Shown here one piece after another: positions 12,671 to 15,823 of a DNA stretch of 64,000 bases (position 1 is the first letter of the stretch; each line of letters starts with the position of its first letter). The stretch is from Escherichia coli (lineage in GTDB: Bacteria; Pseudomonadota; Gammaproteobacteria; Enterobacterales; Enterobacteriaceae): assembly GCF_009931435.1 (NCBI RefSeq), contig NZ_CP043414.1, one strand, 5' to 3'. The position numbers were made by a program, and so were the translations under genes. The notes beneath the pieces were generated by a model. It was not told the origin of the DNA. It searched no databases and saw nothing but the letters and a program-made list of their open reading frames with translations.

Positions 12671-12997
12671 TTATTTTTGCAACCATTTCCCGTTAATTCC
12701 CTGCACATATTCCCCCGGTTTGGCCCGAGCTACAAGCTTTTGTCCGGCAAGCTTCGCGATATCATCTACCGATACATTATTTTGCTTTGCCAGTTGTTGA
12801 TAACTCACTTTACGTGCGGCATTAATCTCGGTTACTAATTTCTCTGTTTCAGCATCCGTTTTCAACGCAACCAAATAACCGTTAAATGTTTCACCTACCC
12901 GCCCCTGAATTCTGGCCTCGTCCAGTGTTAATGCCACTACATTGCTGCTTACCAGTCCAACAAGAAACGCACAAAGAAGTAATGTTTTCTTCATCAT
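12671..12997 (-). CDS. ydbL: YdbL, small periplasmic protein (DUF1318)
   Basis: 108-aa protein from MMKKTLLLCAFLVGLVSSNVVA (signal peptide). The track ORF is extended 26 codons upstream. Immediately follows ynbE. Confidence 0.85.
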   Translation of the reverse strand: MMKKTLLLCAFLVGLVSSNVVALTLDEARIQGRVGETFNGYLVALKTDAETEKLVTEINAARKVSYQQLAKQNNVSVDDIAKLAGQKLVARAKPGEYVQGINGKWLQK

Positions 12998-13001
12998 CCC
13001 C

Positions 13002-13187
13002 TCAGAAAAGATCGCTACGGGTTTTGAGTAAATCTTCGACATCTTTGTCTGCCTTAATGATGATCTCATGCTCAATTTTAACGTTCATATTGATAGTGAT
13101 CGGTTCCTTAGGTGCAGCGACTTCAATGCGAGGCGTACAGCCAACCAGCATAAAAGATGACGTCAACGCAGCCAGTAAAATTTTCAT
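13002..13187 (-). CDS. ynbE: YnbE, small lipoprotein
   Basis: 61-aa ORF with lipobox (MKILLAALTSSFMLVGC). Start overlaps ydbH stop by 4 nt. Confidence 0.85.
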   Translation of the reverse strand: MKILLAALTSSFMLVGCTPRIEVAAPKEPITINMNVKIEHEIIIKADKDVEDLLKTRSDLF

Positions 13188-15823
13188 TGTTTTTCCTCAC
13201 ACCCTTTTCCTTGCGGACAGCCATTTTCCGGCAGACGCGCGTTCTGCTCCAACCATGCCTGGAGATTATCGCCAAAGCGTAAACTGCGCCACAGGGTAAA
13301 AATATTCTCTTCATGATGGTAATTAAGGTTTACCGTACCACTTTTACCGTCGACGCGACTGGTACCTGTAATATTGGCCTGCATGGTTAACACACCAAGA
13401 TTATCTAAATTAATTTTTGTCGATGAACGGCTAATTTCCATATAGCGCAACCAGTTAATCGCTGAACCCGCAGTCATATTGTCTTTCACCACCGCATCTG
13501 CGGTGTCTTTATCCAGCCGCAAAGTCATTGGTCCGCTATTTGCCAGCCAGCCGTCTTTAACTATCCATTTTTCATTGTTCAGCCATAAAGGCAATGCCCC
13601 ACTAAATGCCCCGGACATGGCGAATTGTTTCGGATTGACGGCGCTAACCAGTTCGCTGGATGAGAGATTATTCAGCCGCAACAGCGCCGGGTCATGTTGC
13701 GGCATGCGTAATTGTTTCATCAGCACGTTACCGCCTAACACATCGACGCTAACATCGGTCAACAACAATGGTTCGTCTTCACTCCACGGATAACGCCCTT
13801 GCAAGTCAGCCGTAATATTTTTCGCTGTCACCAGATTAATCACTTCGGCAATTCGCAACGTAACGGGGCCGCGAGTCCCCAGATGCCAGGCTCCATCGGC
13901 AAAACGGAAAGGCAGGACAAAATCGACACCGTTGACCTGATTATCTGGCATCCAGGCACTACCGCCTTTCAACACACCGTGCCCTCCCGCGCGGAATCCT
14001 TGTTCAGGCGCAGCAGAAAATGCAACCTGGGCATACAGCTCGCCATCGCGTAAGTTCATCTTCCAGTCGGGTGGCACCAACGGTTGAAACACAGTCAACG
14101 ATTGCTTAGGCCACCAGGCGTTACCGCGCAGGCGAATGCCGTCCCAGCGTCCATTTACCTGCACCGGCCCAATCTCACCAGCATGTAAATCCCCTTTGAA
14201 GAGGAAATATGTCGGATCGCGTCCATCGACACTAAATTTTAAGGTTGATGGCGGTAACACACTGCCACCCGTGAACAGCGTTTGCCCGGCGTCCAGTGAC
14301 AGCGCGCCGCTGAACGAAGGATTCTGCACATCACGTACCCAGACGACGGGCTTGTCGAGAATCAATCGCGGCTTTTCTACCGTCATTGTCCCGTATTGCA
14401 ATTTGTCAAAGCCGGTTGAGAGATCGGTCAGCGTAATCGTGCTGTCATGCCACTCACCTTTTCCTGCGACATCCCAGGTGGCATTCATCGGTGTAAAACT
14501 CCCTTTTCCCCAGTAGCGCCACTGCCAGCGGCCAGCGTCAGGGAGAAAATCATTCGCCAGCCCATCCATATGCAGTACGAAATCGCCCAGTTCATTTTCA
14601 TGCGCCTGCAAAATGGCCTGCAAACGTCCGTCAACACCACGTTGGGTGACTTTTACACCCGCTAAAGGCCAGCGGATTTCATCAATATCCAGCGAATCGA
14701 TGACTCTTCCCTTCGAACGTAATAACGCGCCTGGCTCAAAGGCCAGCGTTGGGTCAGTCAGACTTCCGCTTAGCTGCGCAGGTAAACGGGCATATAAAAT
14801 GAGGTCCGCCTGTTTCGCTTCACCGGTCAGTTGCATAGGCAGCTGGCTGTTATCCATGCTTAATTTTCCTGGGCCAAAATTAAGCACCGCGTTGCCCTTA
14901 CCCGCTTGCCCCTGGGTCAGCACACTCAGTCGTCCGCTGACCAGAGCATTCTCAAGCCCTGCCTGCCAGTTGTCGACTTTGACACCCAGTCGTCCACTCA
15001 AAGGAAAACCTGCATACGGCCAGCTCCAGCGACCATCGCTTACGGTCAATTGTTGGCGAGTAATTTGCCACGGCAGATCGAGCAACGGATCGCCGTTATC
15101 CCGTGCCAGCACAATCAATTGCCCGCTATTTTCCTGCCAGTCCAGCTCGGCATCCACCAGTGAAGGCTCCTGCGGCAAGTTTAACGTCGCAGTAGCATGA
15201 CCACTTACAGGAAGTCCATCCGGCACTAGCGGCATAGTAAATTCCCCCACCAGTTTAACTGGCGGCTGATTTTCAAACGCGACGACATCCAGTTCGCTGA
15301 CTGTAAGTTGTTGCCCTTTCAGCTGGCCTTGAAATTTAACTTTTTCGCCCTGATAACGCAGTTGCTGGATATCGGAGTTTAATGCGAGAGAGAGTTTTCC
15401 CTGCCATTCCTGCCAGGGAGAAAAAATCAGTTTATCGATATTGATCCAGGTGTTAGGCAACATGGCCTGCCACTGCGCGAGGGTTTTCGGAGCGGCTGGC
15501 GATTGCTCCGTCTGCGGCAATTTCGCCAGACAAGCAGAATCAAGTTCTACCGTGCCGACGTTCAATAACCAGCGGCTGGGATGAGAAAGGCTGGCGTTTG
15601 TGATATGTGCAAGCTGACAATCTCCTACCAGATAACGGAGATCGGGAATGATTAAACCTTTACGCGTAATGCGTGGGCTTTCATCTAAAGCAATACGTGT
15701 GCCGAGCGGTAGCCAGATGCCCGCCAGCGTGGGAACCCACAACCCGAGCGTCATCAGTAGCGTCAACGGCACAAGAATAATCAGTAATAGCAGCGCGAGA
15801 ACGGCTTTATATTTACCCAACAT
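13184..15823 (-). CDS. ydbH: YdbH, AsmA-family large envelope protein
   Basis: 879-aa ORF with N-terminal membrane anchor (MLGKYKAVLALLLLIILVPLTLLMTLGLWVPTLAGIW). Divergent from ldhA as in E. coli. Confidence 0.9.
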   Translation of the reverse strand: MLGKYKAVLALLLLIILVPLTLLMTLGLWVPTLAGIWLPLGTRIALDESPRITRKGLIIPDLRYLVGDCQLAHITNASLSHPSRWLLNVGTVELDSACLAKLPQTEQSPAAPKTLAQWQAMLPNTWINIDKLIFSPWQEWQGKLSLALNSDIQQLRYQGEKVKFQGQLKGQQLTVSELDVVAFENQPPVKLVGEFTMPLVPDGLPVSGHATATLNLPQEPSLVDAELDWQENSGQLIVLARDNGDPLLDLPWQITRQQLTVSDGRWSWPYAGFPLSGRLGVKVDNWQAGLENALVSGRLSVLTQGQAGKGNAVLNFGPGKLSMDNSQLPMQLTGEAKQADLILYARLPAQLSGSLTDPTLAFEPGALLRSKGRVIDSLDIDEIRWPLAGVKVTQRGVDGRLQAILQAHENELGDFVLHMDGLANDFLPDAGRWQWRYWGKGSFTPMNATWDVAGKGEWHDSTITLTDLSTGFDKLQYGTMTVEKPRLILDKPVVWVRDVQNPSFSGALSLDAGQTLFTGGSVLPPSTLKFSVDGRDPTYFLFKGDLHAGEIGPVQVNGRWDGIRLRGNAWWPKQSLTVFQPLVPPDWKMNLRDGELYAQVAFSAAPEQGFRAGGHGVLKGGSAWMPDNQVNGVDFVLPFRFADGAWHLGTRGPVTLRIAEVINLVTAKNITADLQGRYPWSEDEPLLLTDVSVDVLGGNVLMKQLRMPQHDPALLRLNNLSSSELVSAVNPKQFAMSGAFSGALPLWLNNEKWIVKDGWLANSGPMTLRLDKDTADAVVKDNMTAGSAINWLRYMEISRSSTKINLDNLGVLTMQANITGTSRVDGKSGTVNLNYHHEENIFTLWRSLRFGDNLQAWLEQNARLPENGCPQGKGCEEKQ

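What the first reader, a model, noticed from the sequence alone, without database searches (positions are those of the whole stretch)
12671..15823. ydbH-ynbE-ydbL operon with overlapping reading frames
The AsmA-family protein YdbH (879 aa) is followed by the 61-aa lipoprotein YnbE (4-nt start/stop overlap) and the periplasmic YdbL (5-bp gap), a tightly coupled three-gene unit. AsmA-like proteins are proposed bridges for phospholipid transport to the outer membrane, and the small partners probably form the outer-membrane end of the bridge. Its position next to the giant autotransporter may be incidental but is worth noting.
Basis: partly seen in the sequence, partly recalled or inferred. Interest (0 to 1): 0.3.

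Follow-up and report, generated by a model that had tools for sequence, protein, structure and literature searches.

The report
Known ydbH-ynbE-ydbL lipid-bridge operon
This is the ordinary, already well-studied E. coli ydbH-ynbE-ydbL operon, which builds one of three redundant protein bridges thought to carry phospholipids from the inner to the outer membrane; nothing about this copy is unusual.

Summary
Three co-directional genes lie on the minus strand at 12671-15823: ydbH (879 aa), ynbE (61 aa, ATGA start/stop overlap) and ydbL. The ynbE-ydbL gap is 4 nt to the first ATG or 7 nt to the second, not 5.

All three match their families: PF11739 at 1.8e-290, the NF007971 equivalog, PF13617, and PF07027. 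YdbL also matches PDB 28oj. The proteins are 98%, 97% and about 92% identical to the K-12 proteins. The block is present in 5417 of 5426 complete E. coli genomes.

The biology is published:
- YdbH, TamB and YhdP are redundant and jointly essential.
- The YnbE lipoprotein extends the YdbH groove to the outer membrane.
- YdbL is a dispensable, dose-sensitive, chaperone-like modulator of YnbE, not a structural part of the bridge.
- ynbE translation is coupled to ydbH by termination-reinitiation.

In a survey made here of 80 Enterobacteriaceae species, 79 keep a -4 or -1 overlap at ydbH/ynbE. Distant relatives keep the gene order.

The neighbouring autotransporter is incidental. K-12 has 19 kb between ydbL and ydbA. 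Only 17 of 5426 genomes share this junction.

Verdict: real, correctly identified, already known, low interest.

The parts
15824..16030 (.). 207-bp divergent intergenic region between ldhA (+, starts 16031) and ydbH (-). It presumably holds the ydbH operon promoter.
   Evidence: Differs from the K-12 ldhA-ydbH spacer at only 2 of the roughly 210 bases compared. The consensus sigma-70 scan found no site here, and its counts did not exceed those in shuffled sequence. The promoter is therefore inferred, not shown.
13184..15823 (-). ydbH: an 879-aa inner-membrane-anchored AsmA-like protein, the YdbH intermembrane phospholipid transport protein.
   Evidence: PF11739 YdbH-like, E = 1.8e-290, residues 14-862 against profile positions 1-892 of 893. 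NCBIfam equivalog NF007971, 1394 bits against a cutoff of 824. 863 of 879 residues identical to K-12 YdbH. RefSeq annotates the same ORF in close relatives.
15734..15805 (-). Codons for the N-terminal transmembrane anchor of YdbH, about residues 7-30 (AVLALLLLIILVPLTLLMTLGLWV).
   Evidence: All 19-residue Kyte-Doolittle windows above 1.6 start within residues 1-22; the peak is 2.95 at residue 8. This agrees with the published topology (PMC11126948).
13194..13198 (-). Shine-Dalgarno GAGGA for ynbE. It lies inside the last codons of ydbH (…C-E-E-K-Q*), 6 nt upstream of the ynbE ATG.
   Evidence: Sequence. GAGGA or TAAGGAG sits at the same place in nearly all of the 80 species surveyed. Removing this SD abolished reinitiation in K-12 reporter constructs (PMC6728339).
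13184..13187 (-). ATGA: the overlapping ynbE start codon and ydbH stop codon (-4 overlap). This is the termination-reinitiation site.
   Evidence: The printed junction is identical to K-12. Across 80 species, 62 have ATGA, 17 have TAATG (-1 overlap) and 1 has a 2-nt gap.
13002..13187 (-). ynbE: a 61-aa outer-membrane lipoprotein that caps and extends the YdbH groove.
   Evidence: PF13617 Lipoprotein_19 (YnbE-like), E = 1.8e-16. 59 of 61 residues identical to K-12. The mature region GCtPRIEvAApkePITINMNVKIEHEIhIKvDKDVE.LLKsRSDLf is nearly invariant across 81 sequences, 74 of them distinct.
13137..13148 (-). Lipobox L14-V15-G16-C17 of YnbE. Cys17 is the lipidated residue; Thr at +2 gives the outer-membrane sorting default.
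   Evidence: Translation. A lipobox with Cys was found in 79 of 80 species; the residue after Cys is Thr in 71 of those 79 and never Asp.
12998..13004 (-). TGAGGGG: the ynbE stop codon fused to the Shine-Dalgarno (GAGG) for ydbL.
   Evidence: TGAGG is conserved at the ynbE/ydbL junction in most of the surveyed species.
12671..12997 (-). ydbL: a periplasmic DUF1318 protein and chaperone-like modulator of YnbE. It is 108 aa from the first ATG (12997), or 107 aa from the second ATG (12994), which is the better-supported start.
   Evidence: PF07027 DUF1318, E = 3e-30. PDB 28oj 'Probable chaperone-like protein YdbL', E = 3.4e-46, covering residues 23-108. An ATG with a 7-nt gap is the commonest arrangement across species. 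K-12 is annotated from that ATG. 15 of 16 functionally tested residues are conserved.
12025..12670 (.). 646-bp AT-rich spacer (GC about 36-38%) between ydbL and the autotransporter gene. It is not part of the operon as far as can be told.
   Evidence: Composition. No terminator-like hairpin was found. No unusual fold was found in the first 206 nt after ydbL (12480-12685, z = +0.49). No Rfam match. The spacer is found in only 17 of 5426 complete E. coli genomes.

Best explanation
This is the ydbH-ynbE-ydbL operon of an Escherichia coli chromosome, encoding a known envelope-spanning lipid-transfer system.

How it works:
- YdbH is anchored in the inner membrane by one N-terminal helix. Its repeating beta-groove (AsmA-like) domain extends into the periplasm.
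- YdbH alone is too short to reach the outer membrane.
[quoted passage not shown] This continues the hydrophobic groove along which phospholipid acyl chains are thought to slide.
- YdbL is a soluble periplasmic protein that binds the C-terminal helix of YnbE. It limits runaway YnbE self-multimerisation and helps dock YnbE on YdbH. It is not essential, and it is toxic in excess, so the protein ratio matters.
- The gene layout helps set that ratio. ynbE is translated almost only by ribosomes that have just terminated on ydbH, through the ATGA overlap and an SD inside ydbH. ydbL follows 4-7 nt later, with its SD fused to the ynbE stop codon.

Shown here: the anatomy, family membership, near-identity to the studied K-12 genes, and conservation of gene order and junctions.

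Shown by others in K-12 and P. aeruginosa: redundancy with TamB and YhdP, the YdbH-YnbE cross-links, the YdbL effects, and the translational coupling.

Still inferred by everyone: actual lipid flux through the groove.
For: - ORFs and junctions are as described.
- Family assignment: PF11739 1.8e-290, PF13617 1.8e-16, PF07027 3e-30; the NF007971 equivalog; PDB 28oj YdbL at 3.4e-46.
- Identity to K-12: YdbH 863/879, YnbE 59/61, YdbL about 98/107. The ydbH/ynbE junction is identical.
- The block is present in 5417 of 5426 complete E. coli genomes with the same annotation.
- YdbH has a single N-terminal hydrophobic anchor. YnbE has the lipobox LVGC followed by Thr.
- In 80 species from about 20 named Enterobacteriaceae genera, the ydbH/ynbE junction is ATGA in 62, TAATG in 17 and a 2-nt gap in 1. 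The ynbE/ydbL junction keeps TGAGG, with ATG 4 or 7 nt after the stop in 61 of 69.
- YdbL relatives at 36-38% identity still sit in the order YdbH-like > Lipoprotein_19 > DUF1318, with gaps of 2-37 nt.
- Published experiments:
  - ydbH is synthetically lethal with tamB and yhdP (PMC8593681).
  - ynbE is also essential in that background, YdbH and YnbE photo-cross-link in vivo, and YdbL is dispensable but dominant-negative in excess (PMC11126948).
  - YdbL crystal structure, its binding to the YnbE C-terminal helix, and DegP turnover (bioRxiv 10.64898/2026.03.16.712125).
  - ynbE translation depends strictly on ydbH translation and on the intragenic SD (PMC6728339; PMC10666635).
  - YnbE is also needed for YdbH in P. 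aeruginosa (PMC12447247).
Against: Nothing found contradicts it. The limits are these:
- No promoter or terminator could be identified by consensus scans; counts were at or below those in shuffled sequence. Co-transcription therefore rests on gene spacing and the literature.
- No solved structure exists for YdbH or YnbE.
- The predicted YdbH-YnbE complex is still reported as too short to span the periplasm (PMC11126948; PMC12447247).
- Biochemical proof of lipid transport is lacking.
- This strain's proteins differ slightly from K-12: YdbL E60A and no terminal Phe; YnbE E52D and E55K. These match the family consensus.
Confidence: 0.96

Rival explanations
1. The operon is functionally linked to, or co-transcribed with, the 1830-aa BigA/YdbA-type autotransporter immediately downstream on the same strand. 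By analogy with TamB, first described as an autotransporter-assembly factor, YdbH-YnbE would serve that autotransporter.
For: Both are on the same strand, 646 bp apart. No terminator-like hairpin was found in the spacer. No stable fold was found in the first 206 nt after ydbL. The autotransporter is intact here, whereas K-12 ydbA is a pseudogene disrupted by IS2 and IS30.
Against: The adjacency is a lineage peculiarity.
- K-12 has about 19.2 kb (feaR, feaB, tynA, paaZ, paaA-K, paaXY, ynbG) between ydbL and ydbA.
- Only 17 of 5426 complete E. coli genomes carry this junction and this autotransporter allele.
- Among the 80 other species, only one other Escherichia species (L003) has an autotransporter-like hit downstream of ydbL; no other genus does.
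- Distant relatives have unrelated downstream genes.
- The spacer is long and AT-rich, as expected for a separate, probably silenced, promoter region.
- The absence of a consensus terminator is weak evidence, because the scan's counts were at chance level.
Confidence: 0.03
2. ynbE and/or ydbL are spurious or decaying small ORFs, and only ydbH is a real functional gene in this strain.
For: The ORFs are small (61 and 107-108 aa). NCBIfam has no model that matched either.
Against: - Both hit curated Pfam families well above cutoff.
- The mature YnbE sequence is nearly invariant across 74 distinct sequences, and the lipobox Cys was found in 79 of 80 species.
- YdbL matches a solved structure. It keeps 15 of 16 residues tested in mutagenesis; the one difference, E60A, is reported as tolerated.
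- The YdbL family has 1154 clusters (at 50% identity) at E <= 1e-3.
- Both proteins have published phenotypes.
Confidence: 0.01

Closest known systems
E. coli K-12 ydbH-ynbE-ydbL operon (b1381-b1383): the YdbH-YnbE intermembrane bridge with the YdbL chaperone-like factor (Kumar, Davis & Ruiz 2024, PMC11126948; De'Ath et al. 2026 preprint)
   Same: - Same three genes in the same order, with the same divergent neighbour ldhA.
- Identical ATGA junction and SD.
- Proteins 98% (YdbH), 97% (YnbE) and about 92% (YdbL) identical.
- Same TM anchor, lipobox and signal peptide.
   Different: - The YdbL C-terminus ends ...KWLQK* instead of ...KWVRKF*. It lacks the terminal Phe, as do 59 of 69 surveyed species that end at the conserved Lys.
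- YdbL has E60A. YnbE has E52D and E55K, and Lys at that position is the family consensus.
- The downstream neighbour is a YdbA-type autotransporter instead of feaR.
- About 96% DNA identity to K-12.
TamB-TamA and YhdP: the other two AsmA-like phospholipid bridges of E. coli
   Same: An inner-membrane N-terminal anchor plus a periplasmic repeating beta-groove. They are functionally redundant with YdbH and jointly essential (PMC8593681; PMC11126948).
   Different: YdbH is much shorter (879 aa). It needs a small lipoprotein, YnbE, to reach the outer membrane. TamB instead uses the Omp85 barrel TamA, and YhdP has its own C-terminal hydrophobic helices (PMC12447247). No sequence comparison with TamB or YhdP was run here.
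P. aeruginosa PA5307 (ydbH) - PA5306 (ynbE)
   Same: [quoted passage not shown]
   Different: The YdbH orthologues are reported as very divergent (24% identity over one sixth of the length), and YnbE is 49% identical to the E. coli protein. The P. aeruginosa locus itself was not examined here.
Termination-reinitiation gene pairs with -4/-1 overlaps (Huber et al. 2019, PMC6728339)
   Same: An ATGA overlap with an SD inside the upstream gene. ydbH/ynbE is itself one of that paper's test cases, showing strict coupling and strict SD dependence.
   Different: The local RNA structure that paper proposed to block de novo initiation has no thermodynamic signal in this sequence. The -99..+30 fragment folds less well than most shuffles (z = +1.46).

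Membership tests
YdbH family (Pfam PF11739; NCBIfam NF007971), AsmA-like proteins | Full-length match to the curated family models above their cutoffs | tested here: met
   PF11739 at 967 bits (cutoff 26.3), covering profile positions 1-892 of 893. NF007971 equivalog at 1394 bits (cutoff 824).
YdbH family (Pfam PF11739; NCBIfam NF007971), AsmA-like proteins | A single N-terminal transmembrane anchor, with the rest of the protein periplasmic | tested here: met
   All strongly hydrophobic 19-residue windows start within residues 1-22.
YdbH family (Pfam PF11739; NCBIfam NF007971), AsmA-like proteins | Repeating beta-groove ('taco') fold with a continuous hydrophobic channel | not tested
   No structure prediction was run, and no solved structure matches YdbH by sequence. 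The fold is taken from the literature for the 98%-identical K-12 protein (PMC11126948).
YdbH family (Pfam PF11739; NCBIfam NF007971), AsmA-like proteins | Synthetic lethality with tamB and yhdP | not testable with these tools
   Published for K-12 (PMC8593681; PMC11126948).
YnbE-like lipoprotein (Pfam PF13617) | Match to the family model | tested here: met
   E = 1.8e-16, 60 bits (cutoff 25.8), covering profile positions 1-34 of 34.
YnbE-like lipoprotein (Pfam PF13617) | Lipobox with an invariant Cys, and no inner-membrane retention residue (Asp) at +2 | tested here: met
   L14-V15-G16-C17-T18 in the window. A lipobox with Cys was found in 79 of 80 species; the +2 residue is never Asp.
YnbE-like lipoprotein (Pfam PF13617) | Encoded directly downstream of a ydbH-like gene | tested here: met
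   All 80 species loci. Also true of distant metagenomic loci L085 and L089, and probably L091, where the truncated upstream product was not family-scanned.
YnbE-like lipoprotein (Pfam PF13617) | Physical contact with the YdbH C-terminus by beta-strand augmentation | not testable with these tools
   Shown by in vivo photo-cross-linking in K-12 (PMC11126948).
YdbL / DUF1318 (Pfam PF07027) | Match to the family model and to the solved YdbL structure | tested here: met
   PF07027 at E = 3e-30. PDB 28oj at E = 3.4e-46 over residues 23-108.
YdbL / DUF1318 (Pfam PF07027) | Cleavable Sec signal peptide, giving a soluble periplasmic protein | tested here: met
   The N-terminus MMKKTLLLCAFLVGLVSSNVVA|LTLDE has a basic n-region, a hydrophobic core and V-x-A before the cut. 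The crystallised chain aligns from residue 23 onward. Cleavage itself is inferred.
YdbL / DUF1318 (Pfam PF07027) | Conservation of residues shown to matter for YdbL function or for YnbE binding | tested here: met
   L24, R28, E35, Y40, N58, R61, Y65, L68, N72, I79, K86, L87, R90, W104 and K107 are all conserved. Only E60 differs (Ala), and E60 variants are reported to have no detectable functional defect.
Translationally coupled (termination-reinitiation) gene pair | A -4 or -1 stop/start overlap with an SD 5-9 nt upstream, inside the upstream gene | tested here: met
   ATGA at 13187-13184. GAGGA at 13198-13194, with a 6-nt spacer. The overlap is conserved in 79 of 80 species.
Translationally coupled (termination-reinitiation) gene pair | Downstream translation depends on upstream translation reaching the overlap | not testable with these tools
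   Shown with reporter fusions for the K-12 ydbH/ynbE junction, which is identical to this one over the printed stretch (PMC6728339).

The most novel reading that the evidence does not exclude
In this rare E. coli lineage, loss or absence of the 19-kb fea/tynA/paa block places an intact YdbA/BigA-type autotransporter 646 bp downstream of ydbL, with no recognisable terminator between them. Read-through from the ydbH operon could then tie autotransporter expression, or its assembly, to the YdbH-YnbE bridge, echoing TamB's original role in autotransporter biogenesis.

A weaker variant concerns YdbL. Because it ends here at Lys107, without the hydrophobic terminal Phe of K-12, its DegP-dependent turnover, and so the YdbL:YnbE ratio, may be set differently from K-12.
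Probability: 0.03. Interest if true: 0.4.

Novelty: already known. Interest (0 to 1): 0.07.

Why it matters
The system matters in its own right. It is one of three redundant routes proposed for bulk phospholipid delivery to the Gram-negative outer membrane, and so a potential antibiotic target. That significance belongs to published work, not to this window.

What this check adds is modest:
- Across about 20 Enterobacteriaceae genera, the ydbH/ynbE start/stop overlap (ATGA or TAATG) is kept in 79 of 80 species.
- The ynbE stop is fused to the ydbL Shine-Dalgarno (TGAGG) in most of them.
- The second ATG is the better-supported ydbL start.
- K-12's terminal Phe108 of YdbL, proposed as part of a DegP-recognition surface, is an E. 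coli peculiarity rather than a family feature.

Tried and rejected
1. Promoter and terminator consensus scans over 12000-16300. Six of each were found, against 7.4 and 5.0 expected from shuffles. None lay in the ldhA-ydbH spacer or after ydbL, so the scans are uninformative.
2. Folding the first 206 nt downstream of ydbL to look for an intrinsic terminator. No hairpin with a T-tract; z = +0.49.
3. Rfam search at permissive E-value over 11800-16300. No match.
4. Testing the Huber 2019 idea that local RNA structure occludes the ynbE initiation site. The -99..+30 fragment folds less well than 190 of 200 shuffles (z = +1.46), with the SD mostly unpaired. The ydbL initiation region gave z = +0.14. 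No support was found, so covariation was not pursued; the region is coding and would be confounded.
5. Solved structures for YdbH and YnbE. None exist by sequence.
6. A link between the operon and the autotransporter. Rejected on synteny grounds.
7. Structure prediction and fold search of YdbH. Considered and not run, because family membership is already decisive and the available alignment was shallow.
8. My first automatic junction classifier picked internal ATGs in some loci. It was redone with an explicit rule.
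Full report
**1. Observation**

Three co-directional ORFs fill the reported interval exactly, all on the minus strand.
- ydbH runs 15823..13184 (ATG start, 879 aa).
- ynbE runs 13187..13002 (61 aa).
- ydbL runs to 12671.

On the minus strand the first junction reads ...TGT GAG GAA AAA CAA TGA. The ynbE ATG is at 13187-13185, so the two genes share ATGA at 13187-13184. A GAGGA Shine-Dalgarno lies at 13198-13194, 6 nt before the ATG and inside the last ydbH codons.

The ynbE stop TGA (13004-13002) is followed by GGGG and then ATGATG. The gap to ydbL is therefore 4 nt to the first ATG (12997, 108 aa) or 7 nt to the second (12994, 107 aa).

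RefSeq PGAP uses the first ATG in the closest genomes. The curated K-12 record uses the second.

**2. Identity**

- YdbH matches Pfam PF11739 'Intermembrane phospholipid transport protein YdbH' end to end (E = 1.8e-290). It also matches the NCBIfam equivalog NF007971 (1394 bits, cutoff 824).
- YnbE matches PF13617 'YnbE-like lipoprotein' (1.8e-16).
- YdbL matches PF07027 DUF1318 (3e-30). It also matches PDB 28oj, 'Probable chaperone-like protein YdbL' (3.4e-46).
- Nothing solved matches YdbH or YnbE.

The 3.6-kb block is found in 5417 of 5426 complete E. coli genomes, with the same three gene names.

Against K-12 MG1655, YdbH is 863/879 identical, YnbE 59/61 and YdbL about 98/107. The ydbH/ynbE junction and the ldhA-ydbH spacer are essentially the same.

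Simple sequence features fit the published topology:
- YdbH has a single hydrophobic anchor at residues about 7-30.
- YnbE has the lipobox LVGC followed by Thr.
- YdbL has the signal peptide ...SNVVA|LTLDE. The crystallised chain aligns from residue 23.

**3. Surroundings**

- Upstream is the divergent ldhA gene (16031-17020, +), as in K-12.
- Downstream, after a 646-bp spacer of about 36-38% GC, lies a 1830-aa ORF at 6532-12024 (-). It carries the BigA_N and BigA_beta domains. By position (…pdxI, ydbD follow) it is the counterpart of K-12 ydbA.
- In K-12, ydbL and ydbA are separated by about 19.2 kb: feaR, feaB, tynA, paaZ, paaA-K, paaXY and ynbG. K-12 ydbA is a pseudogene broken by IS2 and IS30.
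- Only 17 of 5426 complete E. coli genomes share this ydbL/autotransporter junction and this autotransporter allele.
- Among the 80 other species examined, only one other Escherichia species (L003) shows an autotransporter-like hit within the roughly 3.4 kb downstream of ydbL. No other genus does.

Consensus scans found no promoter in the ldhA-ydbH spacer and no terminator after ydbL, but their counts were at chance level. There was no Rfam hit. The first 206 nt after ydbL showed no unusual fold.

**4.

A scan of one genome per species returned 80 loci from about 20 named Enterobacteriaceae genera. These included Escherichia, Citrobacter, Salmonella, Enterobacter, Klebsiella, Raoultella, Kluyvera, Kosakonia, Lelliottia, Cedecea, Franconibacter, Buttiauxella, Pluralibacter, Yokenella and Trabulsiella, among others.

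ydbH/ynbE junction:

| Junction type | Species (of 80) |
|---|---|
| ATGA (-4 overlap) | 62 |
| TAATG (-1 overlap) | 17 |
| 2-nt gap | 1 |

GAGGA or TAAGGAG sits a few bases upstream of the ynbE start in nearly all of them.

ynbE/ydbL junction: TGAGG, the stop codon fused to the SD, is conserved in most loci. An ATG 7 nt after the stop is the commonest arrangement (37 of 69 loci). In a further 24, including this window, an extra in-frame ATG sits 3 nt earlier (ATGATG). The second ATG lies 5 nt after GAGG; the first lies only 2 nt after it. I therefore infer that the second ATG (12994) is the real start.

The mature YnbE sequence is almost invariant across 74 distinct sequences.

The YdbL family is broad, with 1154 clusters (at 50% identity) at E <= 1e-3. 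Members only 36-38% identical to this YdbL still lie in the order YdbH-like > Lipoprotein_19 > DUF1318, with gaps of 2-37 nt (L084, L085, L089, L091).

So gene order and tight spacing are ancient. The exact overlap is characteristic of Enterobacteriaceae.

**5. Mechanism, and what is already published**

- Ruiz et al. [quoted passage not shown]
- Kumar, Davis and Ruiz 2024 (PMC11126948) made several points:
  - ynbE, like ydbH, is essential when tamB and yhdP are absent.
  - YnbE multimerises and photo-cross-links to the YdbH C-terminus in vivo.
  - The interaction is modelled as beta-strand augmentation that extends the hydrophobic groove.
  - ydbL is NOT required, but it improves function at native dose and is lethal in excess in the tamB yhdP mutant.
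  - The paper also points out the ATGA overlap and the intragenic SD.
- De'Ath et al. 2026 (bioRxiv 10.64898/2026.03.16.712125) solved the YdbL structure. They mapped its binding to the YnbE C-terminal helix and showed that DegP degrades free YdbL.
- Huber et al. 2019 (PMC6728339) used ydbH/ynbE as a test pair. A premature stop in ydbH abolished ynbE translation, and the SD was strictly required for reinitiation. A 2023 follow-up reported that reinitiation efficiency falls as the stop-to-start distance grows in the E. coli pairs tested, ydbH-ynbE among them (PMC10666635).
- Sposato et al. 2025 (PMC12447247) showed that YnbE is also needed for YdbH function in P. aeruginosa.

It is not part of the outer-membrane end of the bridge. 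It is a dispensable, dose-sensitive, chaperone-like factor.

**6. Small differences of this copy**

- YdbL here ends ...GKWLQK*, at the conserved Lys107. So do 59 of 69 surveyed species. K-12's ...KWVRKF*, with terminal Phe108, was seen in only one of the 69. The 2026 preprint lists W104-F108 as a hydrophobic patch that made YdbL a candidate DegP substrate. The terminal Phe is thus not a family feature.
- Of 16 residues probed by mutagenesis, 15 are conserved. The exception is E60A, and E60 variants were reported as tolerated.
- YnbE differs from K-12 at E52D and E55K in the C-terminal helix. Lys at the second position is the family consensus.
- The occluding RNA structure that Huber et al. 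suggested at the ynbE initiation site has no thermodynamic signal here (z = +1.46).

**7. Verdict**

It is an ordinary copy of a well-characterised operon on an E. coli chromosome. That chromosome is about 98.2% identical over 29.8 kb to the closest complete genome compared, and 96.1% identical to K-12 over 6.2 kb. Beyond this region the window continues into the normal abg genes.

Novelty: already known. Interest: low.

Noticed in passing
window 6532-12024 (-) and spacer 12025-12670: An intact 1830-aa BigA/YdbA-type autotransporter (Pfam BigA_N and BigA_beta) sits 646 bp downstream of ydbL. The roughly 19.2-kb feaR-feaB-tynA-paa block that separates ydbL from the IS-disrupted ydbA pseudogene in K-12 is absent here. 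Only 17 of 5426 complete E. coli genomes share this junction and this passenger-domain allele. Most other genomes that match at all do so only over the 3' (beta-barrel-encoding) ~1.3 kb, at about 80-88% identity.
   Followed up: partly
window 12671-12685 (3' end of ydbL): YdbL ends ...GKWLQK*, at the conserved Lys107, as in 59 of 69 Enterobacteriaceae species. K-12's ...KWVRKF* (terminal Phe108) is part of the hydrophobic C-terminal patch discussed as a DegP-recognition feature in the 2026 preprint. It appeared in only 1 of the 69 species. The ydbL 3' end also coincides with the breakpoint between conserved and variable DNA.
   Followed up: partly
window 12992-12997: ydbL begins with ATGATG. 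RefSeq PGAP calls the first ATG in close relatives (4-nt gap). The curated K-12 record calls the second (7-nt gap). The second is the position conserved across genera, and it is better spaced from the GAGG that overlaps the ynbE stop codon.
   Followed up: yes
window 13158-13286 (-): The -99..+30 fragment around the ynbE start is the fragment used in published coupling assays. It folds less stably than 190 of 200 shuffles (z = +1.46), with the SD largely unpaired. The occluding structure proposed to prevent de novo initiation therefore shows no signal here.
   Followed up: partly
window 1-29844 versus L083; 12673-18874 versus K-12 (L082): The window is collinear with the E. coli chromosome. 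It is only about 98.2% identical to the closest complete genome compared and 96.1% identical to K-12, so it comes from a comparatively divergent and rarely sequenced lineage. In strain 2020CK-00188 the autotransporter is annotated as two CDSs, whereas here it is a single ORF.
   Followed up: no
Look-up of encoding contigs result for P0215 (no DNA available): Some distant DUF1318 proteins are about 220 aa long and match YdbL in two stretches (P0215, P0239, P0249), suggesting a duplicated or fused YdbL-like domain. One sits after an 88-aa ORF on a short metagenomic contig.
   Followed up: no
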